A DNA stretch of 64,000 nucleotides from Raja brachyura (Eukaryota). Shown in pieces: positions 7,665 through 63,835 of the stretch. The number at the start of each line of letters is the position of its first letter. Position 1 is the stretch's first letter. The DNA is taken from the NCBI GenBank assembly GCA_963514005.1, contig OY740789.1, positions 72,912,001-72,976,000 of the forward strand, given 5' to 3'. Both the position numbers and the translations under genes were made by a program. The notes beneath the pieces are model-generated. The model had not been told where the DNA came from. It saw nothing but the letters and a program-made list of their open reading frames with translations, and made no database searches.

Positions 7665-9168
7665 TTAAAAGTATCAGAAAACCCCGTTTTCAGCAGGACT
7701 TTAGATAACTCCTTTTACACAATTAAATAACAGCTCCGGTAGTTATTTTTAGAAATCCCTCTTCTTCCAACTCGTATTTAAGCACATTAAGGCATTCTTC
7801 TGGAGCGGAGCTAATAGCAGCACCTCTCAGCACTCCATTGACGCCAACAGAAGTCTTAAAATGTATTTCTAACGTTAAGTTTTCCCCACTGGTTAAAGAC
7901 TTTCTGTTTTTTTATCGGTACTAATTTCTTTACAAATTTAAGTTTGCCGTTATTTACTCCATGGATTTTGAAAGATTTTTGATTACTTTAAAAAAAAAAT
8001 CGGTGTTAATTTGCAAAGACTCCATTTTGAACAAATGGATCTGTCTTCATTGACAACTGAGATCACTTTGATGAACGAGGCTTAATGCTGACTTCCACAT
8101 CCCTAAAAATAAGAGTCCGATTGAACTTCATTGTTTTGGTTTAACTTCGAAAACGTTGTTTTTTTTGTTCTTTAAAGACTTTCCGGTGTCTCACTTAACT
8201 ATACTAATTCTTAAAGATAACATTTAATTTCAAAGACAGTGCTTTTGTAATTTTAAAATATATTTCTAATGTTAAATTTTGCCTGTTTGTTAGAGACTTT
8301 CTGTCTAACTTAACTGTACTAATTCTTAAAGATAATATTTAATTTCAAAGAGAGCGCTTTTTAAATTTTTAAATGTATATCTAATGTTAAATTTTCCCCA
8401 CTTGTTAAAGACTTTTAATTTTTTTTTCCGGTACTAATTTATTTACAATTTTAAAAGTTTGCGGTTACTTAGTCCGCGGAATTTTGACTGATTTTTGACT
8501 GCTTTCAAAAAAATTTGCAGTTAAATTGTAAAGACTCCATTTTGAACAAATTGATCTGTCTTCATTGACAACTGAGATTAAAATAATCCGCGGATATTTA
8601 CTCCGCCGATTTTGACAGATTTTTGACCACTTTAAAAAAAAATCCGCTGTTGATTAGGAAAGACTCCATTTTGAACAAATTGATCTGTCTTCATTGACAA
8701 CTGAGATTAAAAAAAATCAATGTTTTGGTTTAACTTCGAAAATGTTGCATTTTTTGTTCTTTAAAGACTTTCCGGTGTCTCACTTAACTATTAATTCTTT
8801 AAGCTATCATTTAATTTGAAAGACAGCGCTTTTTAAATTTTAAAATATATTTCTAACGTTAAATTTTCCCCGTTAGTTAAAGACTTTCAGTTTTTTTTCT
8901 GGTACTAATTTCTTTACAATTTGAAAAGTGCGCTGTTATTTACTCCACGAATTTTGACAGATTTTTGATCACTTTGATGAACGAGGCTTAATGCTGACTT
9001 GCACATCCCTAAAGATAAGAGTCCGATTGATCTTCATTGTTTTGGTTTAACTTTGAAAACGTTGCTTTATTTGTCCTTTAAAGACTTTCCGGTGTCTCAA
9101 TTAACTGTACTAATTGTAAAAGATAACATTTAATTTCAAAGACAGTGCTTTTAAAGTTTTAATATATA

Positions 9169-9680
9169 CCAGACCAAGTGCAGACCCATTGGGTCTGGTC
9201 CCCGGAACGTGCTTCATAGCCTGAGTATGGGGGGAGGGGGAGAAGGGGGGAGGGGTGGTGGAGAGGGAGCGGGGGGGGGGGGGGGGGGGGGGTTGTTACC
9301 GAACTGAACTCACTGTGGAATGAATCGATGAACGGAGCCACTCTACTGCTGGATTGAAAGTTGTCCCTGCCTTCCCTCTGGCTGACAGGCCATTAATGCG
9401 CCAGCTGAAGGCAAAGATCAGCTGTTCCCCCGCAGTATTTCGGAGCACGTCGAAAAGCAGCGGTGGAAGAGGCGATCTCAGCCAGCGTGATAGAGCCGAG
9501 CCAAGCCGGGCCGGGGGGGGGGGGGGGGGGAGTGGAGGAAGTAAAATCAGCAGTGAAATAAAAGCCGGGCAGCAGCAGGGAAAATTGCCAGCAAAATAAA
9601 ACAAATGGCTGCGTTTTTGGAGAGCGGGCTGCAGCAGCTGCCATTCTGGTGGGTGGCCAGCAGGAGGACACAAAATAACC
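9169..9680 (-). mobile_element. Helitron-like element, 3' portion (minus strand)
   Basis: Minus strand reads GACCAGACCCAATGGGTCTGCACTTGGTCTGG|TATA: hairpin + CTRR end, same terminus as at 60326 and 62238. 5' boundary uncertain. Confidence 0.7.
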
Positions 9681-10704: not shown

Positions 10705-10924
10705 AACCCCCAACTAGCTGCGCCTGCATAGTTGGGGGTTATGTGTGAGTGGATAGGGGGGGGATGGGGTAAATGGAGCGAATGAATAACATTAATATAA
10801 TATCAAGGGGGGTGGGTTAGTGTGTGTATGAGGGGCGGTGGTTAGTGTGTGTCTGTGTGTGATGCCAAAGGCCACCCCCCCGTACGTTGAGGGGACGGGA
10901 CCCAACAGGTTCCCCTTGATCTAA
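10705..10924 (+). mobile_element. Helitron-like 3' terminal fragment
   Basis: Aligns with 61610-61801 (GCCTGCA.AGTTGGGGG.TATG..., ATTAATATAAT..CAAGGGGG, GGTTAGTGTGTG). Ends GGGACCCAACAGGTTCCCCTTGATCTAA|T. Confidence 0.65.
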
Positions 10925-33653: not shown

Positions 33654-35211
33654 TCTATACATACCTAAAACTCTGATCTTGTGCTCTTCCGGTTTGCGGG
33701 TTTTTTTTTGTTTGCGCAAAAACAGTACATGATAGCGCTACGATTTTTCATCAGGTTACTCACCGTTCTCCTGTCCTGCGAGTGCACCAAGTTTTGTTCC
33801 AATCGGTGGTATATTGAAAAACTTATCGAGGTTGAAAAATCTTAAAAAACGCGTGTGCGCAGATTCCTTCAGTCAGCACCACGCAGATTGGATTCTTATC
33901 CTGTCAGTCAATGCCACGGTCGGGATGGCACACCCCTTCCTGCCCCACTGACGGCGGCCTGTCCAGGGACAACTCACAAACTCCTCTCTCCCCTCCTCAC
34001 AGTAACTTGTCTATCATCTCCCCCACCACCGGCGGCAGCCGCGGTGGGGGGGGGGGGGGGGTGTGTGTTCAGTGGAGGCCCAGTGGAGGCCTTGGTCCTG
34101 TCTCTCTCTCCCTCATCACACACCCCTCTCCCCTGCCCGCCCTCTGCGGCAATGGCAGTTCCATCTACCCGTCCCCCCCAGGTCTGTCTCCGCCGCCGCC
34201 ATTGCGGTAATTCATCCTCATGGCCTTCTCGGAGTTCTTCTCCACCAGCTCATCGAAACTCGTGGTGCCCACCATGATGCACACCGTCGCAATCCCCCCT
34301 CCCCCCGTGGCCCGGTGGCAGCAGTGAGCAGGCAGGTGGGTGGGCAGGGCAGGGACGGGCCAAGTGGCAGCAGGGGGCGGGCGAGCAGGGCGGGTGCGGG
34401 CTGAGCTGCTGCAACGGGCAGTCGGACAGGCTGGGGATGGGCTGAGCACGGCTGAGCCGGAGTGGGCAGAGGGAGGGAGGGAGAGTCGCGTTGCAGGGTG
34501 GCCAAGCAGTTTGCGCGGAGTTTGAGTAACTCACACACACAAATGCAAACTGGTCCAATCGTCAAGTCAACGGGATCTAAACTACAGCTAACAATGAATG
34601 ACCTATGGAGGAAGGAACTGCAGATGCTGCTTTTTATGGATGGAGGGAGTGACTGAGGGTAGGGGAAAGGAGAGGGAGGGAGAGGTGAGGGAGAGATTGG
34701 GGAGGGGAGGAGGAGAGGGGAACGATCATGGGTAGGTGAGGACGGGTGTGGGGGGATTGAGGAAGAGGAAGGGGTAGGGAGGGAGAGGGGGAGAGTGGGG
34801 GAGGTGAGGAAAGTGGGGGAGGAGGGGGAATAGAGGGAGAGGAGGGGGATTGGGGAGGAAGGGGAGTGGGGGGGTAGAGGAAGGTGAGGAGTGGGGGATA
34901 GAGGGATGGATGGGGGTAGGGAGGGGAGAGGAGTTATGGAGGGAGGGAGGGAGTGACTGAGGGTAGGGGAAAGGAGAGGGAGAGGTGATGGGGGATTGGG
35001 AGGGGAGGAGAGGGGAAAGAAGCGGGAGGGTGAAGGGGAGGGAGTGCTGGGGGATGAGGGGAAATGAGCCTGTGCAGTTGGGGGCTATGCATGAGTGGGG
35101 GGACGGGTTGCATTGGGGGAACGGATGAGTGATGGAATATTGCATTGGGCAGCGGGTTGTGTTGGGGGAGCTCCCTTGTGACAGGGACCCAACGGGTCCC
35201 TCTCAGTCTAG
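33654..35211 (+). mobile_element. Complete non-autonomous Helitron-like element (1.56 kb)
   Basis: A|TCTATACATAC 5' end, GGGACCCAACGGGTCCC hairpin followed by CTAG|T 3' end, no TSD. Both ends are homologous to 53290-54626. Confidence 0.85.
34212..34293 (-). pseudogene. Captured ALG13 exon-1-like fragment inside the Helitron
   Basis: Translates IATVCIMVGTTSFDELVEKNSEKAMRM, resembling the ALG13 N-terminus (MKxVFVTVGTTSFDxL). Confidence 0.6.
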
Positions 35212-49913: not shown

Positions 49914-51007
49914 CGTTCTCTCAACGTCAATTTCCTCTGCATCACTTTGACTGTCAGCATCCTCCAGATCACTCTGAGAGTCAGTATCTTTATCAGAGTC
50001 CATAAAGTTTTCATATCGCAGTAATCTTTGATGAAAGTCTAGTTCCTCATTCTCTGGATTTTTTAGCATATCCTTATCAATCACTTCATGGTTAGATCTG
50101 GAAGAATCTTTAGCAACAGCAGTTCCTTTTCCAGTTCTTGTGGAATTATCTAGTACAGAATTTTCATTTTCTTCTTCCACAATATGTTTTGCACTAGTGT
50201 ATGAATGGTCAACCAATTCTGCTGGAGTATGGTGTTCTAATGCATTTTGATGGCCCATAGAATCATCCTCCAACTCATTGTCTACCTCACTACCTGAAGG
50301 AGTGGAAGGAAATGCATCAGTCGCCTGTTTAACTTCTGGCGATGGATCAGCATTTACATGGTCCTCATCTGGTACACCCTGAGACACCGGTGTCTCAATA
50401 AGCTCAGAATCAGCAACATGAATCTCCTCTAGCCCAGGTTCAATCAACTTTTCTTCTGATTTGTTATTCTGGTTGGCAGTCTTCTCAGAGCCTGCTTTTT
50501 CAAATGACTGTGAACCAGATGACTGATCCACAAGCTGCAATGACTGTCCAGTAGTTATGATGGCATTTGAAACTTGTTGAGGCAGCTGCAGTAGAGCAAA
50601 TCCCATTGGTTGAAGGGGAACTAGATGCCATGCACTGAGAGTTTGACCAACACCATTAGCAGCAACAAACGGAGGCTGTGAAGTAGTTTTAACAGGTACC
50701 TCTGACGCTACTGCAGAAATGGGTTGAGGAGTAAGGGCTTGCTTCAAAGCAACACCGGCTGGTTTTAGAACACGGGTTGAACGTGGCCTTCCTCGTTGTG
50801 GGATTTTCCCTTTAGGACATAGAGTGACATTGCTGGGAGATGAAGCCACAGAACAAGATTTTATTGGGGTAGGCAGAACAATAGGCGTCGAACATGGCTT
50901 TCTTCTTTTTGGTATTATCTGTTTAGGACATAGATTGACATTGCTAGGAGATGAAGCCACCGAACAAGATTTTATTGGGGTAGGCAGACAATTTCCACTC
51001 CCTGAGC
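49914..51007 (-). CDS. mga: MGA-like large exon (1094 bp, phase 1-0)
   Basis: TTCTTAG acceptor, GTGAGT donor. Open frame GSGSGNCLP...PMGFALLQLP...DHSY...EEIDVERT; phase matches neighbouring exons. Confidence 0.88.
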
Positions 51008-51289
51008 CTAAGAATATGAAAATCAAAAAAAGAGGAAATGTTAGATAAAACAAACCGACTTTATAAAAAATTAGAAATAAGTTAAAAGGTTGTGCAGTCC
51101 AGTTCCATATTATGGTAGGTGCAATTATCTTCTTGTGTGGAATTGTCTGGGTTGACTTCCACTTCCGTATTGTTATCTTCACCAATCTGTGCAGCATAAT
51201 CCAGAAGATTAAAAGTGAGAACAGAAATGATGATTAAGTGAAAGGGATGGCGGTGGAGACCCTAAAGCGAGGAGTGGCTTTTTGGAACA

Positions 51290-52550
51290 GGAATCATAGA
51301 AACATAGAAAAATAGGTGCAGGAGTAGGCCATTCGGCCCTTCGAGCCTGCACCGCCATTCAAGGTGATCATGGCTGATCATCCAACTCAGTATCCCGTAC
51401 CTGCCTTCTCTCCATACCCCCTGATCCCTTTAGCCACAAGTGCCACATCTAACGCCCTCTTAAATATAGCCAATGAACTGGCCTCAACTACCTTCTGTGG
51501 CAGAGAATTCCAGAGACTCACCACTCTCTGTGTAAGGATACACAGAGTTGATGAGGAGATGTTTACTTTTGGTTCATATTAGTTGATGAGGAGAGTTTAC
51601 TTTTGGCTCCTTACGTTAACTCAATTATTTAAATTAAAAGCTATGAAAACGCTAAATTTATTATTGTACAAATACTAAAAAATATTAAGCAATTAATACC
51701 TTAATCCCTACAAAAAAATGTTTAGAAGAGGATGGCAAAGGAGGTCGTTCACAGCAGCCCAATTCCAAGCAACTATACATACAGTAGGTAGGTGTCTCTC
51801 AAAAAAACCTGACTTAGCATCGCTGAACTGTTCATCATGAAGAGAAAGATAATCTGGACACCATCAACCAGCAGTGAGCAAATGCTCCTCTGAGAATGGA
51901 ATACAACGTAGCAAAGTTAAAGCTAATTTGCAGGTTGAGTCAGTGGTAAGGAATGCAAAAGCATTCCTTTTGAAGGGACTAAAAAATGCAAGCAAGGAGG
52001 TAATGCTGAGGCTTTATCAGGCTCTGGTGAGGCCACATTTGGAATATTATGAAAAGTTTTAGGTCCCATATTTGAGGAAGTGCTAAATTTGGAGAAGGTC
52101 CAGAGGCCATTTACGAGAATTATCCTGGTTTAACATATGAGGAGAGTTTGAAGGCTCGGTGCCGATAGTCACTGATTTAGAAGGATGAGGGGCGATTTCA
52201 TTAAAATCTAAAGAATAATGAAAGGCCTAGATAGAGTGAATGTGGACAGGATGTTTCCAATAATGGGAAAGTGCAGGACTAGAGGGAACAACCAAAGAAT
52301 AATGGGATGCACTGTTAAATTAGAAATGAAAATATTCTTCAGCCAAAGGGTGGTGAATCTGTGGAATTCATTGCCATTGACGACTGTGGAGTCCAAGACA
52401 CTGGGTATTTTTAAGGTGGAGATTGCTAGGTTCTTGGTTAGGAAGGGTGTCAAAGGCATGAGAATGGGGTTGAGAGGGCAAAATGATTGAATTGCAGAGT
52501 AGACTTGATGGGCTGAATGGCCTAATTCTGCTCCTATATCTTATGATATT
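51290..52550. mobile_element. CR1 LINE fragments (minus-strand 3' end at 51290-51530; plus-strand remnant at 51880-52550)
   Basis: (CATAGAAA)n tail with AGGCCATTCGGCCCTTCGAGCC; LYQALVRPHLEY, MKGLDRV, FFSQRVVNLWNSLP. A near-identical minus 3' end lies at 55250-55465. Confidence 0.8.
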
Positions 52551-55500
52551 ATGGAAGAAGTTGTATATTTGTCAGTGTTTAGTGCGAGGAAGATTCATTT
52601 TACCCGTACGCCATACAGCATTCGATCAGAGAAATCCCATTGGCCTCATTCTGTTTATTTTCCTCTAATATATTCTCTCTTGTGTGCTCACCAATTCTTC
52701 CCCGATTCTCCTACCACCCATCGGCACTAAGGGCAGTTACCAATTTCCAGTTACCAATTAACCAAAGAGCCAGCCCATCGTCCTTAGGATACAGGAGGAA
52801 ACTGAGTGCTCAGACAAAACCCATGTTGCTACAGGGAGAACATGCAAACTCCACAACTGCAGCTCCGGAAGCCACGATCGAACTCAGGCCGCGGGAACCA
52901 TGCAGCCCAACAATACCTACTGTGCTATAATACAGCTTTTTTATCTAAAATTTCTATTTAATTTAACTCTCTTATGACGTCAAGTTTATGGTGGTCCTCA
53001 GAGCAATTATATTCTCCTTTTCTGTTCTATTCTCCTGTGTATTTTTCCTGTAACATATACACTTTTGCATGGCCATCAACTCTACACTGCTTGTCCCACC
53101 TTGAACCCACATTTGGGATAATTATAGTGGCCAATTAATCTGACAACCAGCAAATAATTAAAATAACTAAATATCATAAAATGAATTAATTAAACCCACG
53201 TAAATGAGAGAGCAGGAAATATCTTGCGGCTGCAATGTATAAGAGTTTGTGAACACTTCCGCTCAAGGTCACTACTTAATGTCTGTCTGTCTGTCACTAA
53301 AATGTTCATCTTCTTCTCTTCTGGCTTGGGTTGATTTTACATTTGTGCAAAAACGGTACAAGATAACGCTACGATTTTTCACCATCTTACTCACCATTCT
53401 CCTGTACTGCAAACGCACCAATTTTTATTCAGATCAGTGGTATATTTTAAAAGCTATTAAGATTTAAAAATCTTAAAAACCGAGCATGCGTCGAATGGTC
53501 TCCTCCCCTGTCCGTCACCGCCGGGACGGCGACGCCCCTTCCGGCACCATCGCTACACTGATTGGCCACGTTCGCTATCACTCACCGGCACATGCCAGCC
53601 TCTACCGGCGCGCGGCTGTAGCTGTTGGTGCTCTGGTACCAGGCTGAGGATACGAGGCCTGAGCCTGGTTCTGAGGGCGCCGACAGCTGATGTTTTTCCA
53701 GGGCACGCAAAAAGGCAGGGGAGCGGCAACCTCGAGATCCTGGGGAGGTGAGGAGGGAGAGTAGGGGGATTGAGGGAGAGCAGGGGGTATGGAGGGAGAG
53801 GGAGGAGAAAGTGGGGGAGGTAAGGTGAGTGGGGAAAGTGAGGAGGGAGCCTGGGCGATTGAGGGAGAGCAGGGGGTATGGAGGGAGAGGGAGGAGAAAG
53901 TGGGGGAGGTAAGGAGGGTGGGGAAAGTGGGGGAGGTAAGGAGGGTGGGGAAAGTGGGGGAGGTGAGGAGGGAGCCTGGGGGGATTAAGGGAGAGGAGGG
54001 GCTAGGGAGGGATGGGAAAGTGGGGGAGGTGAGGAGGGAGAGTGGGGAGGAGGGGGAATAGAGGGATAGGAGGGGTGTAGGGAGGGGAGAGGAGTTTGGA
54101 GGGAGGGAGTGGAGGTAGGGGAAAGGAGACATGAGGGAGGGATTGGGGAGGGTAGGAGGGGAGCGAGAGAGGTGAGTCGGGAGAGTGGGGGAAAAGGCAG
54201 AATAGAGGGAGGAGAGGGAGTGGGGGAGGTAGGGAGTAGGGAATAGAGAGAGAGCAGGGCAGTGGGGAAGGTGAGGAGGGATAGTGGGGGGATAGGGGGA
54301 GGTGAGGAGTGGAGAGTGGAGGGTAGAGGGATAGGGGGGTAAGGAGGGGAAAGGAGTGGAGAGAGGGTGTGAGGGAGTGGCTGAGGGTATGGGAAAGGAG
54401 TGGGAGGGAGATGTAAGGGTGGGATTGGGGAGGGGAGGAGGAGTGGGGAAAGAAAAGGGACGGTGAAGAGGAAGGGGAGAGAGTGCTGGGAATGAAGGGA
54501 AATGAGCCGTGCCTGCGCAGTTGGGGGCTATGGGTGAGTGGTGGAATATTGCATTGGGGGAACGGGTTGCATTGGGGGACCAGGCCTCCCATGTGACAGG
54601 GACCTAACGGGTCCCACCTAGTCTAGTATACTATTAAAAGTCTTGACTTGTTTGCCTGTCTGTCTGTAGTCTCAGGTGCTACATAATAACAGGTAATAAC
54701 ATAATAACATAATACATGGTAGCGCTAAATTCTTTGCAGAATCTTACTCAGCTTTCTCCCGTCATCGGTCAAATCAATTTTCCTTTATATTTTATGTTAT
54801 ATTTCACGGTGTAAGGTTTACAAAAGCCAACGATTTACCAACTTTAACAAGATTTTTACTGATAATAGCCTTCCTGCCAGCTTCCAACAAACTACAATAC
54901 AAAGTTGCTATACAGGAACACTCTGTGATTCCACCAACTTTTCACCTAAACAGGATATCACAGTCCTCCACCTGACAATTGTAACAATGTTGCCATCATG
55001 CCACACTTACTCCAGCTCCTGGCAGGACAGGAGGGGAAGTGCTGGAATCTTTTGTTCGACAATGGGTTGAGTTGGGGGACTACGCGTCCCGTGGGGGGTA
55101 TGGGTTAGTAGTGCAATATTGCGTTGAGGAACGGGTTGCCGGGACGGCGACGCTCCTTCCAGCACTCGCTGTCAATCGGGAATCCGCTGATTGGAGTCGG
55201 GGAAGTCGCTGAGTGGAGTCGGGGAAGCCAGTGAGTGGAGTCTGTACAGCCATTCAATATTCGGCCTTCGAGCCTGCACCACCATTCAATATGATCATGG
55301 ATGATCATCCAACTCAGTATCCCATACCTGCCTTCTCTCCATACCCCCTGATCCCTTTAGCCACAAGAGCCACATCCTCTTGAATATAGCCAATGAACTG
55401 GCCTCAACGACCTTCTGTGGCAGAGAATTCCAGAGACTCACCACTCTCTGTGTAAAGAATGTTTTCCTCAAAAAACTGTGTGTGTGTCTGCCGACATCCG

Positions 55501-56484
55501 GCTGCCGCGTCTCCGCTCTTTGATTCCCTGCTCCGCCAAAACCGGACCCTCGGACGCCGCCGTTTTTCCCACTTAGCCAGACGTTACGCTTGTATGTTAT
55601 CAAAGGCGCCCCTCGTTACGTTTAGATGTCGTTACGTACAACATTTTTAATAAAATCCTTCCCCCCCCCCCCCCACTTTTTCAAAAATCAAACTGCTCTC
55701 ACCCATAGAATGTTGGTAAACATTCCATCGTGTGATGTCACAATGCCCAATGCTCACAGATGTCCAATCGGAACGGATCTCATTTCCATCTGCCGTCGCA
55801 CCAGCCCCAGCCCCCCCCTGATGTTCCAGCACGTTCCATTGTATGATGTCACAATGCGATCCCTCACAAATGGCCAATCACAATGGATCTCATTTACATC
55901 TGCCTTTGCCCCAGCCCCGGCCCCTCCCCCCGCAGCCTGTGTCGACATGTGACTGGGGGGACATTGCTGGCTCGCGTTGCCTTTGAAACCTTTTCCAGAA
56001 CATCCTTCCCCAACGGTCATTTGGATTTCGTTCCTCGACAAATTAACACACATTTCCCCGTTTTGTTAATATTCTCTCTTTTTTCAAAGGACTCCATTAC
56101 TCCACTTTGATGAGGTCATTGCTTTTCTGTTTTTAAACTTTGCAGTTATTTTCTTTGCCGATTTCCACAGCCGTGTTTATCTTTATTTTCAATTTAATTC
56201 ATTTTGAACAGATAATTGTGTTTAAAAACCTTGCGCTTATATCATCTGCTGTTTTAGACAAGTGATAATTTTATTTAATTTTCTGATTTTCATTGCTTAT
56301 CTATAATTTACATTACTCAAGTAATTTTTAAAAAATGCTTAAAAAACCCCATTAAAAATCCGTTAAAAAAATTCTCTCTTTATTTCGATTTACAGCATTT
56401 TTAACAGTTTTAAGAGTTCTCTGTTATTTGCTCCGCTAAATTTACCCACAATTTTCACCGTTTTCTTTTAAATTATTTTGTTGT

Positions 56485-59400
56485 GTTTGATTTAATTCTA
56501 CAGGAAAGTCAACTCTCCCTCCCCTTTCTCTCTCTCCCCCACTCTCTCCCCCTCCTATCTCTCTCCACCTCCCCTCCCCCTCTTCCTCCCCCTCTCCTCT
56601 CCCCACCACCTCTCCCTTTCCTCCCCTCTTCTCCACCACCCCTCTGCTCTCACCTCCCCTCTTCCCCTCTCCTTCCCCTCACCCCTCCTCCTCCCACCCC
56701 TTCTCTCTCCCCCCACCCCCTTCCCTCTCTCCCCCTGCCCCTTCCCTCTCTCCCCCACCCCCCTTCCTTCTCCCCCCCTGCCCCTTCCCTCTCTCCCCCG
56801 CCCCCTTCCCCCCTACACCACCCATCTTCCACCACTCCCTCCCACCCCCTTCTCCATACCCCTCTGTCCCTCTTCCACCACTCCCCCTACCCCTCTCCCC
56901 CCCAATCTTCCACTTCTCCCCCTCCCTCACCTCTCTCCCGCGCACCCCTTTTCCCCTACCCCTCTCCCACCACTCCCCCACCTCCTCCCCCCCTCTGTCC
57001 AACTTCCACCACTCCCCCTACCCCTCTCCCCTCCCTCCCCACTCTTCCACTTCTCTCTCCCTTCCCCCACCCCTCTCCCACCCCACCTCTCTCCCTCCCC
57101 ATCCTCTCTCTCCCCACCCCTTTCCCCTACTCCTCTATCCCTCTTTCACCACTCCCCCTTCCCCCACTCTCTCTCCTACTTCCACCACTCTCCCCAACAC
57201 CTCTCACCCTCCCTCCCCACTTCCACTTCTCTCTCCCCTACCCCCCACCTTTCCCCATCTCCCTCCCCAACCCCTCTCTCCCCCTCCATTCCCTCCCCCT
57301 CCCCACTCTTCCCCCTCTCTCCGCTTTCCCCCTCCCTCCTCACTCTTCCCCCTCCCTCCACTCTTCCCTCTCTCTCCCCTACCCCTCCCCACCTCCCTCC
57401 ACACTCTTCCCCCTCCCCTCCCACCCCTCTCTCAACCCCTCACACCTTCCCCCGCCCCCCTCTCCTCCTCCCTCTCCCCCTCTCCATCTCCCTCTCCCTC
57501 CCTCTCCCCCTCTCCATCTCCCTCTCCATCTCCTCCTCCCTCTCCCCCTCTCCATCTCCCTCTCTCCTTACCGCTCCCACCCCTCTCGATCCCCATCTCC
57601 CCCCCACCCCCTTCCCATCGCTCTTGCACCACTCCCTGCTACCCCTCTTCCCCTAACTCACCACTCTTCCCCTCTCCCTCCCCTCCTCTCCTTTCCCTCT
57701 CTCTCCCCCTCCTCTCTCACCCCCTCTCTCTCCACACCTCTCTCCCTCTCCTTTCACTCTCTCTCCCTCCCCCTCCACTCTCTCTCCACCTCTCCCCTAC
57801 CCCTCTTTCCCCCCCACTCCTCTCCCCTCCCCTCCACCTCCCTTTCCTCCCCTCTTCTCTATAACCCCTCTCCTCTCACCTTCCCCTCTCCTCTCCCCTC
57901 CCCTTCCCCTTCCCCTTACCCCACCCCTCTCTAACCCCCTCACCCACCCTCAGGGACATGCTGCCCCGTCCCCCCTGCACATGTGACTAGTGGGACACTG
58001 TACCACTTCCCCCACACGTGTGACTAGGGGCACACTGTACCTCATCCCCCACACATGTGACTAGGGGACACTGTACCACTTCCCCCACACATGTGACTAG
58101 GGGGACACTGTCCCACTTCCCCCCCACAAATGTGACTAGGGGGACACTGTACCACCTAATATCCCCCACACATGTGACTAGGGGGACACTGTACCTCATC
58201 CCCCACACATGTGACTAGGGGGAGCACTGTACCACTTCCCCCACACATGTGATTAGGGGGACACTGTAGCACTTCCCCCACACATGTGGCTAGGGGGACA
58301 GTGATGTCACAATGCCGAATGCTCACAGATGTCCAATCGGAACGGATCTCATTTACATCTGCCCTTGCACCACTATCCCCCACACATGTGACTAGGTGGA
58401 CACTGTACCACTTCCCCCACACATGTGACTAGGGGGAGCACTGTACCACTTCCCCCACACATGTGATTAGGGGGACATTGTAGCACTTCCCCCCCACATG
58501 TGACTAAGGGGACACTGTACCACTTCCCCCACACATGTGACTAGGGAGACTCTGTACCACTTCCCCCACACATGTGACTAGAGGGACACTGTACAACTTC
58601 CCCCACACCTGTGACTAGGGGGACACTGTACCACCTAATATCCCCCACACATGTGACTAGGGGGACACTGTACCACTTCCCCCACACATGTGACTAGGGA
58701 GACTCTGTACCACTTCCCCCACACATGTGACTAGAGGGACACTGTACAACTTCCCCCACACCTGTGACTAGGGGGACACTGTACCACCTAATATCCCCCA
58801 CACATGTGACTAGGGGGACACTGTACCACTTCCCCCCCACATGTGACTAGGGGGACACTGTACCACTTCCCCCCCACATATGACTGGGGAGACATTGCTT
58901 GCTTGCGTTGCCTTTGAAATTCGGACCGTTTCTCGACAGCGATCGATCTAAACGCTGGATTTCTGCCGTTTTTTTATTTTTCATTTTCAAAATCTTAGTA
59001 TTTGATTTAATTCTACAGGAAAGTCAACTCTCCCCTTTATCTCTCTCCCCTTCCACTCGCTCCCTCTCCTCTCTCTCCCCCTCCATTCTCTCTCCACCTC
59101 CCCTCCCCCTCTTCCTCCCCCTCTCGTCTCCCCGCCACCTCTCCCTTTCCTCCCCTTTTCTCCACCATCCCTCTGCTCTCACCTCCCCCTCTTCCCCTCT
59201 CCCCTCCCCTTCACCCACCCCTCTCCCCCCCTCCTCCTCCCACCCCCTTCCCTCTCTCCCCCACCCCCTTCCTTCTCTCCACCTTCCCCTTCCCTCTCTC
59301 CCCGTCCCCTCCACCACTCCTTCCCATCCACTTCCCCCTACCCCTCTCTCTTCCACCACTCCCCCACCACCCTCCCCTCCCTCTCTCCAACTTTCACTAC

Positions 59401-60280
59401 TCCCCCTACCCCTCTCCCCCTCCCTCCCCACTCTTCCACCTCTCTCCCTTCCCTCACCCGTTCCCCACCCCACCTCTCCCTCCCCCACCCTCTCTCTCCC
59501 CTCCCTCGCTATCTCCCCCACCCCTTTCCCCTACTCCTCTCTCCCTCTTCCACCACTCCCCTTCCCGCTGTCTCTCTCCCACTTCCGCCACTCTCCCCTA
59601 CACCTCTCACCCTCCCTCCCCACTTCCACTTCTCTCTCCCCATCCCCACCTCTTCCCTCCCTCCCCCACCCCTCTCTCCCCTCCTCCCTTCCCTCTCTCC
59701 CCACTCTTCCCCCTCTCTCCACTCTCCCCCTCCCTCCCCACTCTTCCCCATCCCTCTACCACTCCCCCCTCCCTCCACACTCTTCCCCCTCTCTCCCCTT
59801 CCCCTCCTCCCTCTCTCCCCCTCCCCCCTCTCACCCCCTCCCCCACCCTCCTCTCCTCCTCCCTCTCCCCTCTCTCCATCTCCCTCTCTCCTCACCCCTC
59901 CCACCCCACCCCCCTTCACCCCCAACTCCCCCCACCCCTTCCCCTCGCTCTTGCACCACTCCCTGCTACCCCTCTCCCACTCAGCCCCTCTCCCTCCCCT
60001 CCCCACCTCTTGCCCTCCCCTTTCTCTCTCTTCCCCTCTTCTCTCACCCCCTCTCTCCCCACCTCTCTCACTCTCCTTTCTCTCTCTCTCCCTCCACCTC
60101 CACTCTCTCTCCACCTCTCCCCTTCCCCTCTTTCTCCCCCTCTCCCCTCCCCTCCACCTCCATTTCCTCCCCTCTTCTCCATAACCCCTCTTCTCTCACC
60201 TTCCCCTCTCCTCTCCCTTACCCCACCCCTCTCTACCCCCCTCACCCACCCTCAGGGACATGCTGCCCTCCGCCCCTGCA
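56485..60280. repeat. Two diverged copies of a ~1.3-1.5 kb polypyrimidine block (56485-57975; 59000-60280)
   Basis: Both begin TTTGATTTAATTCTACAGGAAAGTCAACTCTCCC and end CCTCACCCACCCTCAGGGACATGCTGCCC. Confidence 0.88.
57976..58895. repeat. Minisatellite, ~23 units of 37-42 bp, consensus CACATGTGACTAGGGGGACACTGTACCACTTCCCCCA
   Basis: Direct inspection. Includes a higher-order 4-unit duplication (~58532-58684 / 58685-58837) and one ~75-bp interruption at ~58300-58375. Confidence 0.95.
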
Positions 60281-63129
60281 ACGGCACGTTCGAGGGACAG
60301 ACCCAACGGGTCTGCACTTGGCCTAGTATACTTTTTAAACTGTGTGTGTGTCGGCGGTGTGTGTTTGTGGGCGTATGTCACATTCCATTTTTTTTCAGAT
60401 AAGATTTTTGCCCTTTGATTCCATGGTCCGCCAAAACCACACGCTCAAGCCCATATTTTTTCCATTTTGCTAGACATTACCCTTTTACATTCACTAATGC
60501 ACTCCTCATTACATTTAGACATTTTTATGTACACATTTTTTAATAAAATCCTTCCCCCCCCTCCAAAATGTCAAAATGTTAGAAAAATCAAACAGCTCTC
60601 ACCCCGTAGAATGTAGGTGAACGTTCCAATGTCCAATCGGAATGGATTCATTTACATCTGCCTTTGCTCCAGCCCCGCCCCGCCCCCCCCCCCGCAGCCT
60701 GTGTCGCAGCATGTTCCATTGTGTGATGTCACAATGCCATCCCTCACAGATGTCCAATCGGAATGGATCTCAATTACATCTGCCTTTGCACCAGCCCCCC
60801 CCCGCAGCCTGTGTCGAAGCGCGTGATCACATGTGTGGGAATAGAGAAAGAGGATTGGAGGTGATAGGGAATACATGGACTGCTCCAACCCCTCCCACTC
60901 TACCTCCCCACTCTTTCCCCTCTCTCCCCCCACCCCTCTCAGCCCCCTCCCTCTCTCTCCCCTCTCTCTCTCCTCTCATCTCTCTCACCCCTCCTCTCCC
61001 ACCTTCCCTCCCCCCCTCACCCATCCTCCACTCCTCACCCACCCTCCCTCTCCTCCTCCCCTCCACTCCCTCTTCTCTTGCCCTTCTGGCTCTGCCCCTT
61101 TCTCTTTGTCTCTCCCCATTCTCTCTCTGCTGTCACTCTCTACCATCCTCTCTCTCTCTCCCCCACTCTATCTCTCCCTCCTCTCTCTCCCCCTCCCTAT
61201 CCCTCCCCCTCTCTCTCTCCCTCCCCCTCACTCTCTCCCCCTCCCTGTCTCTCTCCCTTCCTCTCTGCTGCCCTGCCCTCCCCTAAACTCCCTTCCCCCT
61301 CCCCTCCACACCCTCCCCTCCCCTCCCCCCTTCCCTCCACCCATCCCCCTCCCTTCCCCTCACCTCTCCCCCTTCCTTCCCCCCACCTCTCCCCCTCCCT
61401 TCTCACCCCATCTCCCCCTTCCCTCCCTCTCAGCTCCTCTCTCCCCCCCTCTCTCCTCCCATCTATCTCTCCCCTCCTCCCACACCCCCACCCTCCCTCT
61501 CCTCCTCTCCTCCAACCCCCCTCTCTCCCTGTCTCTTTCCTTTCGGTCTCTGCCTCTCTCATTGTTTCTCCACATTCTCTCTCTGCCCTCACTCTCTTTC
61601 TCTAGACACGCCTGCAAGTTGGGGGCTATGAGTCAGTGGCTAGGGCGGTTATGGGGTAAAAGGATCTAATTAATAATATTAATATAATAACAAGGGGGTA
61701 GTTAGTGTGGGGGTGGTTAGTGTGTGTGACGCCGCATGCCCCCCCCCCCCCCACAAATGCACGTTGGGGGAACAGACACAACGGGTCTGCACTTGGTCTC
61801 GTATATAAGTAAAACTTGTGTTTGTTTGTACATATATTTGTTCCCAAAACTCTGCAAAAACGGTGCACGATAGCTCTACAATTTTAGGCCCACCTTGCTC
61901 ACCATTATCCTGCGATGTGAACTACCAAGTTTCCTTCAGATTGATGCTATATTTTAGAAGTTATTGACATTTAAAACTTAAATTTACTTTATACTAAGCC
62001 CCCACTTGCCAGCCAGGCCTGCACAGTTGGGGAAGGCATGTCAGCTGTGTCACAATTGGCAATGGCGCTGGTGACACGGCAGTGACGCAAATTGACGCTG
62101 CCTCCCCGCATGTGCAGTTGGGGAAGGCATGCCGGGCCAGGATTGCCATTTTAACATCCAGTGTCGTGTATAGGTGAGTGGTACTGGGGGAATATTGTGT
62201 CGGGCGACGGGTACCTAACGGGTCCGCACTTGGTCTAGTATTCAATATCTGGGACAGACAGGCAAACTGAAAAGGAGATGGAGCAATATTACCAGAACGT
62301 AATGAAGTCATTGCAACAGGGAGAAAGGATAATAGTATTAGTGCCTGGGTAGAATTCCTTAAGTGTGGACAAGAAGGCATGTAGGCCAAGTATGTTGATC
62401 AGCCAACTAGGGAACATGCTAACCCAATCAGAGCATTGTACAATATAAAAAGTTCAATTAATAATCTTGCCCTGAGAGGTCCATTAAACAAGAACGACCA
62501 TAAAAGGCAGACAAAAATGCTGGAGAAAGAGGCAAGTTGAATAATAGGGTACTAATGAGTGAGTTTAATAATCCAGACACTAAATTATTAAACAGATGAA
62601 AAATAATTTCTGGATTACTACCCAAGACATATGAAAGGTAGCATCAAAGAATACAGTGGGAGACAGCCATTTCAACTCGTAGACCACTGGATACAGTAAT
62701 AGCTATCGACCAGAGTAGCACTTAGAACAAAGCCGAAACAAGCCTGTATTGAAAAAAAAATCTCTTATGTGGACTTTGTTGGCAAATCATAATACAGTCC
62801 TTAATACATCCAAATGGTAACTTAATGGCATGTACTGCCATTTCAGAGGTCACTTAAAAGTCAACCACATTCCTGTAGTTCTGGAGCAAACAAATAAAAC
62901 AAATGACTGGAGTAAAAATCTACACAGATCAAATAAGGATAGCAAAGTCTTCTCCAAAAGTCATAAGTTTCAAGGTTATTATTACAGATTGTAGTTTTTT
63001 TTAAATTCCTGATTTAATTAATGAAATTAACTCAAGTATCTAAATCTTTGACTTTTAAAGACCCTAATTTCAGTAGTTGTGTGCAACAACTACTATATTA
63101 CATTTCCAATGTGACCAAACAGGGTCAAG

Positions 63130-63465
63130 TCTCAATTTCTTGGTTGCAGGGACAAAAAAACAACAGGGGTGGGGGTGGATTGGGTGAGAAGGGATGAAAT
63201 GACCAGGAAGTTATGGAGGGAACGATCTCTGTGGATAGCAGAAAGGGGAGGAGATGGGACGATGTGGCCAGTGGTGGGATCCCGTTGGAGGTGACGAAAA
63301 TGTTGGAGGATTATATGTTTTATGTGACAGCTGGTGGGGTGGAAGGTGAGGACAAGGGGGACTCTGTCCTTGTTACCAGTGGGGGGGATGGGGAGTGAGA
63401 GCGGAGCTGCGGCATATAGAGGAGACCCTGGTGAGAGCCTCATCTATAGAAGAGGGGAACCCCCG
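63130..63465 (-). mobile_element. Penelope-like element fragment
   Basis: NKDRVPLVLTFHPTSCHIKHIILQHFRHLQRDPTT...PPLSAIHRDRSL, typical of the Penelope RT-to-GIY-YIG linker. Confidence 0.8.
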
Positions 63466-63835
63466 TTATTATGATACTTTCATGCATTTAATCAAAACAT
63501 GACTGTTCTAGAAACCTTCAAGACAAGCCACCTTTCTCAACAAAAAAGAATGATCAAAATTAGCAACATTAATCAGAATATTAAAACAAATATTAATTCG
63601 CTGGAAGTTAAATGCTTAAATCACTTCAAATTCTGACAATTAAGTTCTTCGAAAATTTAGTTTATTCCAAGTACACACTATGTAATATTAAAATAATGAA
63701 AGTTCACATTTTTCTTTTCCCATTACTTCAAGATTGTATTCAGCCAAAAACAGTGCATGAACAATGAGGCATAAGATGAACAAAACTAATAAAATCTTCT
63801 GAAAGTCTGCTCTGAGATTCAAAAGCAGAACTCAC

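What the first reader, a model, noticed from the sequence alone, without database searches (positions are those of the whole stretch)
53290..62238. ~9-kb head-to-tail train of Helitron-like units from different subfamilies
Seen: four hairpin+CTRR-like termini (54626, 60326, 61801, 62238). After three of them the next unit starts immediately (CTAG|TATACTATTAAAAG, CTAG|TATACTTTTTAAAC, CTCG|TATATAAGTAAAAC), and all units face the same way. The units have related termini but different interiors. Established: Helitrons end in hairpin+CTRR, insert between A and T, and make no TSD. Inference: since the units are not identical, this is not simple rolling-circle concatemerisation. It looks like targeted insertion at or next to the TCTATA 5' end of earlier Helitrons, or end-bypass chimerism, building composite mega-elements. 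It fills most of a 12.8-kb MGA intron.
Basis: partly seen in the sequence, partly recalled or inferred. Interest (0 to 1): 0.75.

Follow-up and report, generated by a model that had tools for sequence, protein, structure and literature searches.

The report
Helitrons landing in their own heads
Rolling-circle jumping genes (Helitrons) sit nose to tail at hundreds of places in this fish genome, likely because the short DNA pattern they prefer to land in is also part of their own start, so new copies would land four bases inside older ones; this intron holds two such stacks, likely fused by a deletion.

Summary
The stack is real. It consists of decayed non-autonomous canonical Helitrons whose ends match broken RepHel-coding copies in the same genome. 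Genome-wide there are 924 same-strand tail-to-head joins (about 0.6 expected), against 29 head-to-head and 7 tail-to-tail. In 687 of 924 the cut lies 7-8 bases before the head's TAAAA box; only 26 keep an intact TCTA head, which argues against rolling-circle concatemers. Ordinary insertion sites show the same A^T-N7-TAAA pattern (357 of 1964 ends; 7 at a control offset). The heads therefore likely carry the family's landing motif, and newcomers would split TCTA^T. All three window joins lack exactly TCTA. One correction: this is not one 9-kb train. A paralogous copy of the intron shows two empty sites about 1.07 kb apart. Two stacks (at least 3+3 units) were likely fused by deletion around a retroelement fragment. 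Nothing shows the stack moved as one unit. Two supporting tests (leftover TCTA, age order) were inconclusive. Adjacent Helitrons and the asymmetric target are each published, and this scan noted similar single stacks in other genomes. The genome-wide link between the two was not found in my searches.

The parts
53282..54626 (+). Unit 1: non-autonomous Helitron, decayed (TCTG)3 head, G-rich interior, hairpin 54599-54615, CTAG end
   Evidence: left border from paralogues AAAT(A/G)^TCT.TG
54627..55140 (+). Unit 2: head lacks TCTA; last ~11 bases lost
   Evidence: solo relative L357 reads A|TCTA-TATACTATTAAAAG and ends 11 bases past the match with CTAG|T
55141..55258 (+). Orphan interior of a further Helitron (22-bp repeats); head and tail deleted
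   Evidence: same 22-bp repeat inside other family members L042, L056, L104; TRF
55259..55470 (.). Fragment of a high-copy retroelement-like repeat, cut on both sides (CR1-type 3' end, reversed: recalled label)
   Evidence: 93-96% identical to many genomic copies; the copies continue on both sides
55471..60326 (+). Unit 3: internally deleted relative of a RepHel-coding Helitron; first ~12 bases lost; perfect 7-bp hairpin, CTAG end
   Evidence: 5' part 84% to the RepHel copy on C4 and 82% to the one on C775; same tail type as the C4 copy
56461..60280 (+). Internal duplication in unit 3 (56461-57979 and 58978-60280, 94% over aligned columns) around a 37-bp minisatellite (57978-58894)
   Evidence: score 1319 vs 335-393 for shuffles
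60327..61801 (+). Unit 4: head lacks TCTA; CTCG end
   Evidence: solo heads TCTA-TATACTTT in L268, L307, L351; tail 85-93% to relatives
61802..62238 (+). Unit 5: head lacks TCTA; CTAG|T right border
   Evidence: solo relative L384 A|TCTA-TATATTAC; paralogue empty site TTCAAGAA^TATTCAAT
51008..63835 (-). Host intron (12.8 kb, splice sites inferred) of a bHLH gene, likely MGA-like, locally duplicated

Best explanation
The region is two stacks of old non-autonomous Helitrons that likely grew by repeated insertion at a preferred landing motif (A^T, seven bases, TAAA) which the elements also carry in their own 5' end, and that were likely fused afterwards by deletion of about 1.07 kb of host DNA. 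Shown: the family's ordinary insertion sites have T at +1 and an A-run at +9 to +12; many heads read TCTA^T-N7-TAAAA; joined heads lack the bases before that T. Inferred: RepHel reads the motif on the target strand, so a newcomer cuts an older head after TCTA and in the same orientation. The downstream half of the motif survives each insertion and the new head brings a fresh one, so the site can be hit again and the stack grows with one polarity. Here units 3-4-5 would have grown at the right site and units 1-2-orphan at the left site.
For: Target motif: 357 of 1964 exact 3' ends are followed by T-N7-TAAA, versus 7 of 1964 at offset N16; most of the 100 listed flanks are not Helitron heads (by eye). 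In 43 flanks not scored as heads, T at +1 is 43 of 43 and A at +10/+11/+12 is 0.74/0.67/0.60 (up to 5 of them may be missed heads). Joins: 924 tail-to-head, 687 at N7/N8, 26 with intact TCTA, 29 head-to-head, 7 tail-to-tail; chance 0.6/0.7/0.2. Register: the subfamily whose head is TC-TATATTAC (no A at the cut) is preceded by CTRG in 13 of 2525 cases, the other in 271 of 1847. Three-unit test chosen without regard to the downstream end: 8 of 13 units that sit just after a tail with extra spacer bases end on a head, versus at most 11 of 49 background (p=0.015). Window: TAAA at +9 in all three joins, and solo relatives supply the missing TCTA. Paralogue with both empty sites. Same ends on RepHel-coding copies.
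Against: Leftover TCTA upstream of the inserted unit is not significantly more common at joins (9 of 23) than at solo copies (11 of 35, p=0.58), because solo heads often carry extra TCTA or TA themselves. The upstream unit is not detectably younger than the downstream one (11 vs 8 of 20 pairs, 1 tie, p=0.65). The 13/2525 versus 271/1847 contrast is confounded with subfamily age. Inverted joins may be lost or misassembled, which would inflate the polarity. Unit-4-type tails are often followed by heads of their own subfamily (9 of 18 best relatives, a biased set), so some pairs may have been copied as dimers. The right border here (TATTCAATATCT) has no TAAA box. No insertion was observed experimentally.
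Confidence: 0.75

Rival explanations
1. Composite copying: a few tail-head joins formed once and were spread by end bypass, the transposase reading through the first end and moving both units.
For: End bypass is shown for Helraiser and inferred in bats (PMC4778049 passages; PMC4224331 passages). Elements with an internal second head recur here (L103, L116, L240, L241). Same-subfamily pairs are common after unit-4-type tails.
Against: Joins combine many different tails and heads. No second copy of the window's joins was among the scored hits. It does not explain why ordinary sites share the register.
Confidence: 0.15
2. Site re-use from the other side: the later copy lands at the G^T just after an existing tail and loses TCTA on the way in.
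For: Re-use of the site behind a tail does occur: 26 intact CTAG|TCTA joins, and 5 of 13 units just behind a tail end on host DNA. It is one of two readings of the maize pair (PMC2267711 passages).
Against: It needs a precise 4-base loss in the large majority of joins, while solo copies keep TC or TCTA. The register equals that of ordinary targets.
Confidence: 0.07
3. Rolling-circle concatemers that later diverged.
For: Circles with exact CTAG|TC joins are known (PMC4778049 passages).
Against: Only 26 of 924 joins keep TCTA; neighbouring units have unrelated interiors. Microhomology loss at TCTAG-TCTA would remove the G, which is kept (inference from the sequence).
Confidence: 0.03

Closest known systems
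Canonical Helitrons (Helibat/Helraiser; PMC4778049, passages read)
   Same: TC...hairpin-CTAG ends, A^T insertion, no target duplication, AT-rich bias strongest 3' of the insertion
   Different: Reported head-to-tail joins are exact CTAG|TC circle junctions; here most joins lack TCTA
Barley Helitron asymmetric target (Wicker et al. 2017, PMC5738225, passages read)
   Same: [quoted passage not shown]
   Different: The passages read do not link the motif to the element's own 5' end or to stacking
Adjacent maize Helitrons at r1 (Du et al. 2008, PMC2267711, passages read) and nested, multi-terminus maize Helitrons (Dong et al. 2011, PMC3288121, passages read)
   Same: Different Helitrons head to tail by consecutive insertion; insertion near or inside other Helitrons
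   Different: Single case with an intact CTAG|TC join and undecided order; no register or genome-wide count in the passages read
Self-insertion of FoHeli in Fusarium (PMC5148889, passages read)
   Same: Insertion into or beside the 5' end of another copy; multiple 5' termini
   Different: Non-canonical ends and target (TNAT^A); few cases

Membership tests
Canonical Helitron (Helitron1) | 5' TC terminus | tested here: met
   Solo relatives begin A|TC; in the window the joined heads are clipped and unit 1's head is decayed
Canonical Helitron (Helitron1) | 3' hairpin about 11 bases before CTRR | tested here: met
   17-bp palindrome, 7-8 base spacer, CTAG; two of the four window ends are decayed
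Canonical Helitron (Helitron1) | Insertion between A and T | tested here: met
   47 of 48 sampled ends followed by T; 32 of 35 solo heads preceded by A; paralogue empty site A^T
Canonical Helitron (Helitron1) | No target-site duplication | tested here: met
   23 of 35 solo copies have no flank overlap and 8 a 2-base one, as the TA-rich composition would give. Of 34 rebuilt empty sites 10 aligned across the join: 3 clean, 4 with 2-4 extra bases at the head, 3 uninformative. A rare TA duplication is not excluded (L260).
Canonical Helitron (Helitron1) | RepHel partner with the same ends | tested here: met
   96 PF14214 matches; of 8 examined, 5 had the same tail within the fetched DNA; Rep and PIF1 domains in the C775 copy; the C4 and C775 frames read in full are broken; unit 3 is 84% to the C4 copy's 5' end
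Canonical Helitron (Helitron1) | Rolling-circle movement through circular intermediates | not testable with these tools
   No activity data
Helentron / DINE-1 / Helitron2 | TT target and subterminal inverted repeats (recalled) | tested here: not met
   Targets are A^T and ends are TC / CTAG; an endonuclease domain was not searched beyond the two frames
Rolling-circle concatemer array | Identical units joined CTAG|TC | tested here: not met
   26 of 924 joins intact; window units differ

The most novel reading that the evidence does not exclude
Helitron RepHel uses one recognition box (T-N7-TAAA) both to bind the element's own left end and to choose the target. Self-landing, one-way stacks and growing (TCTA)n heads would then be a built-in property of canonical Helitrons from fish to grasses, and a subfamily could escape being hit by shifting the A^T in its head out of register.
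Probability: 0.3. Interest if true: 0.72.

Novelty: new variant of a known kind. Interest (0 to 1): 0.45.

Why it matters
It offers a simple, testable reason for an old observation, that Helitrons pile up next to and inside each other in one direction: the landing motif is part of the element's own start. It predicts the exact join (head clipped 7-8 bases before the TAAAA box). Annotation tools that look for TC heads would miss such units or merge them into false giant elements. It also points to a usable target preference for Helitron vectors. The locus itself has no sign of a function.

Tried and rejected
Leftover-TCTA test: not significant. Age order of partners by tail decay: not significant. 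SINE/LINE-tail or TSD origin of the ends: rejected by the shared ends on RepHel copies and by empty sites. One single insertion point: rejected by the paralogue. Public contigs: unit 5 with its right flank is present in runs of organisms F, H and A, and unit 1 with its left flank in A. Contigs of A, B, C and D that run into the empty left site may be paralogues, so they do not date the insertions. No run showed a stack with one unit missing; repeat-derived contigs swamped those tables. Protein search with the large host exon found nothing. No coding frame of note lies in the stack; its long frames are low-complexity. Literature searches found no paper tying the target motif to the element's own head, nor one on cartilaginous-fish Helitron stacks. 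Yang and Bennetzen 2009 and Kosek et al. 2021 were not held and may bear on novelty; I opened no supplements. Also read as passages without a change to the reading: PMC5876387, PMC13342296, PMC13286980, PMC12001565, PMC12477314, PMC4683698.

Full report
Observation. The four 3' ends and three tail-to-head joins are in the sequence as described. The window lies on contig C9 of a 2.7-Gb genome. A cartilaginous-fish origin is my inference from the repeats and the label in earlier notes of this scan; I did not determine it. The stack lies in a 12.8-kb minus-strand intron (inferred splice sites 51008-63835) of a gene with an HLH exon. 'MGA' is recalled, not tested.

Family. One exact 28-base 3' end occurs 1964 times (backward control 0), a looser end 10,620 times and the head box TAAAASTCTNATCTTG 15,387 times. 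Solo copies begin A|TC and end hairpin-CTAG|T. The genome has 96 matches to the Helitron Rep family. Of 8 examined, 5 have the same tail in the fetched DNA, and one encodes Rep and PIF1 domains in broken frames. Unit 3's 5' part is 84% identical to the RepHel copy on C4 and ends in the same tail. Of 34 rebuilt empty sites, 10 aligned across the join to other repeat copies: 3 show clean A^T insertion, 4 show 2-4 extra bases at the head, 3 say nothing. These are canonical non-autonomous Helitrons.

Adjacency. Same-strand tail-to-head joins number 924 against about 0.6 expected. Head-to-head joins number 29 and tail-to-tail joins 7. Of the 924, 687 have 7 or 8 bases between the tail and the TAAAA box and 26 keep an intact TCTA head. 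Partners come from many subfamilies. Inverted joins could be under-counted through instability.

Target motif. T-N7-TAAA follows 357 of 1964 exact ends, versus 7 at offset N16. By eye, most of the 100 listed flanks are host DNA. A sample of 48 distinct ends (one true duplicate set collapsed, and one distinct locus collapsed by mistake) gives A at +10 to +12 in 60-74% of the 43 flanks not scored as heads; 5 were heads by pattern and 8-11 of 49 by eye. Barley Helitrons have nearly the same asymmetric target (PMC5738225, passages), and Helraiser prefers AT-rich DNA 3' of the site (PMC4778049, passages).

Mechanism. Many heads read TCTA^T-N7-TAAAA, which is the target motif in register. Solo relatives of units 2, 4 and 5 have this form, and the window copies lack exactly TCTA, with TAAA at +9 in all three joins. 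A subfamily with TC-TATATTAC heads, which has no A at that position, is preceded by CTRG in 13 of 2525 cases versus 271 of 1847 for the other; age may contribute. I fetched 16 loci chosen only for a tail followed by a longer spacer and a head. A next tail was found in 13; 8 of these end on another head (one 4.8 kb away may not be that unit's own end) and 5 on host DNA, versus at most 11 of 49 in background (p=0.015, or 0.03 without the doubtful one). This fits a latecomer dropped into an existing join or re-using the site. That RepHel reads the motif is inferred, not shown.

Against. Leftover TCTA was not enriched at joins (9 of 23 vs 11 of 35), since solo heads carry extra TCTA too. Upstream tails were not less decayed than downstream ones (11 vs 8 in 20 of 30 loci with both scorable). 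Same-subfamily pairs are frequent after unit-4-type tails, so some copying of dimers is possible.

History of this locus. The flank is locally duplicated: 4 other copies lie within 0.8 Mb. One paralogue aligns to the left flank and, starting at base 62239, to the right flank, with the empty site TTCAAGAA^TATTCAAT and about 1.07 kb between the two sites. Parts of that interval are in three more paralogous stretches and it has no match in the window. The middle of the stack is broken in the matching way: unit 2 lacks ~11 final bases, an orphan Helitron interior follows, then a 212-bp fragment of a young repeat, then unit 3 without its first ~12 bases. The simplest reading is two stacks of at least three units each, fused by deletion. 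Unit 3 grew to 4.9 kb by an internal duplication and a 37-bp minisatellite. Contigs of public runs confirm the unit-4/5 join (one record, no differences) and show unit 5 with its flank in three labelled organisms and unit 1 in one other, so the insertions are not recent. Among the 40 best candidates scored in each of two DNA searches, none repeats the window's joins.

Known and new. Adjacent different Helitrons (PMC2267711), insertion near or inside others (PMC3288121; PMC12477314), self-insertion at 5' ends (PMC5148889) and tandem arrays (PMC5876387) are published; I read passages only. Earlier notes of this scan describe single stacks in other genomes. The fixed register, the 4-base clipping and its match to the ordinary target motif were not found in searches, but two key papers were not held. 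Verdict: ordinary elements, a real and well-counted stacking rule, moderate interest.

Noticed in passing
window 33654-35211 (+): Solo full-length Helitron of unit 1's kind with an intact A|TCTATACATACC head and CTAG|T end; a local control for the clipped heads.
   Followed up: partly
window about 8170-9260 (-): Another tail (CTGG|TATATATTAAAAC) followed by 115- and 129-bp tandem repeats, in the opposite orientation; a further Helitron tail piece at 10721-10900 (+).
   Followed up: no
G000:C9 about 73.06, 73.35, 73.65, 73.74 Mb (L397-L400): The host intron and neighbouring exon sequence are duplicated at least four more times within 0.8 Mb at 78-90% identity: a local cluster of MGA-like paralogues or fragments.
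   Followed up: partly
L035, L036, L038, L060, L121, L183, L301, L319: (TCTA)n and (TCTG)n microsatellites often sit directly before Helitron heads; repeated head-splitting or extended heads may seed GATA-type repeats.
   Followed up: partly
L034, L156, L196, L221, L260: One site in an abundant host repeat (GGCCCA^TATCCCTCTAAAC) is hit independently several times; it matches the target motif.
   Followed up: partly
G000:C47 3.84-4.62 Mb (L068-L071): Several near-identical RepHel copies spaced about 120-160 kb apart, suggesting large tandem duplications.
   Followed up: no
window 50769-50988: A 111-bp (37-codon) in-frame tandem duplication inside the large host exon.
   Followed up: no
L103, L116, L240, L241, L244: A young subfamily carries an internal second head after (AAAGTTGCCTTGCCTAATT)-type repeats, i.e. 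multiple 5' termini that moved as a unit.
   Followed up: no
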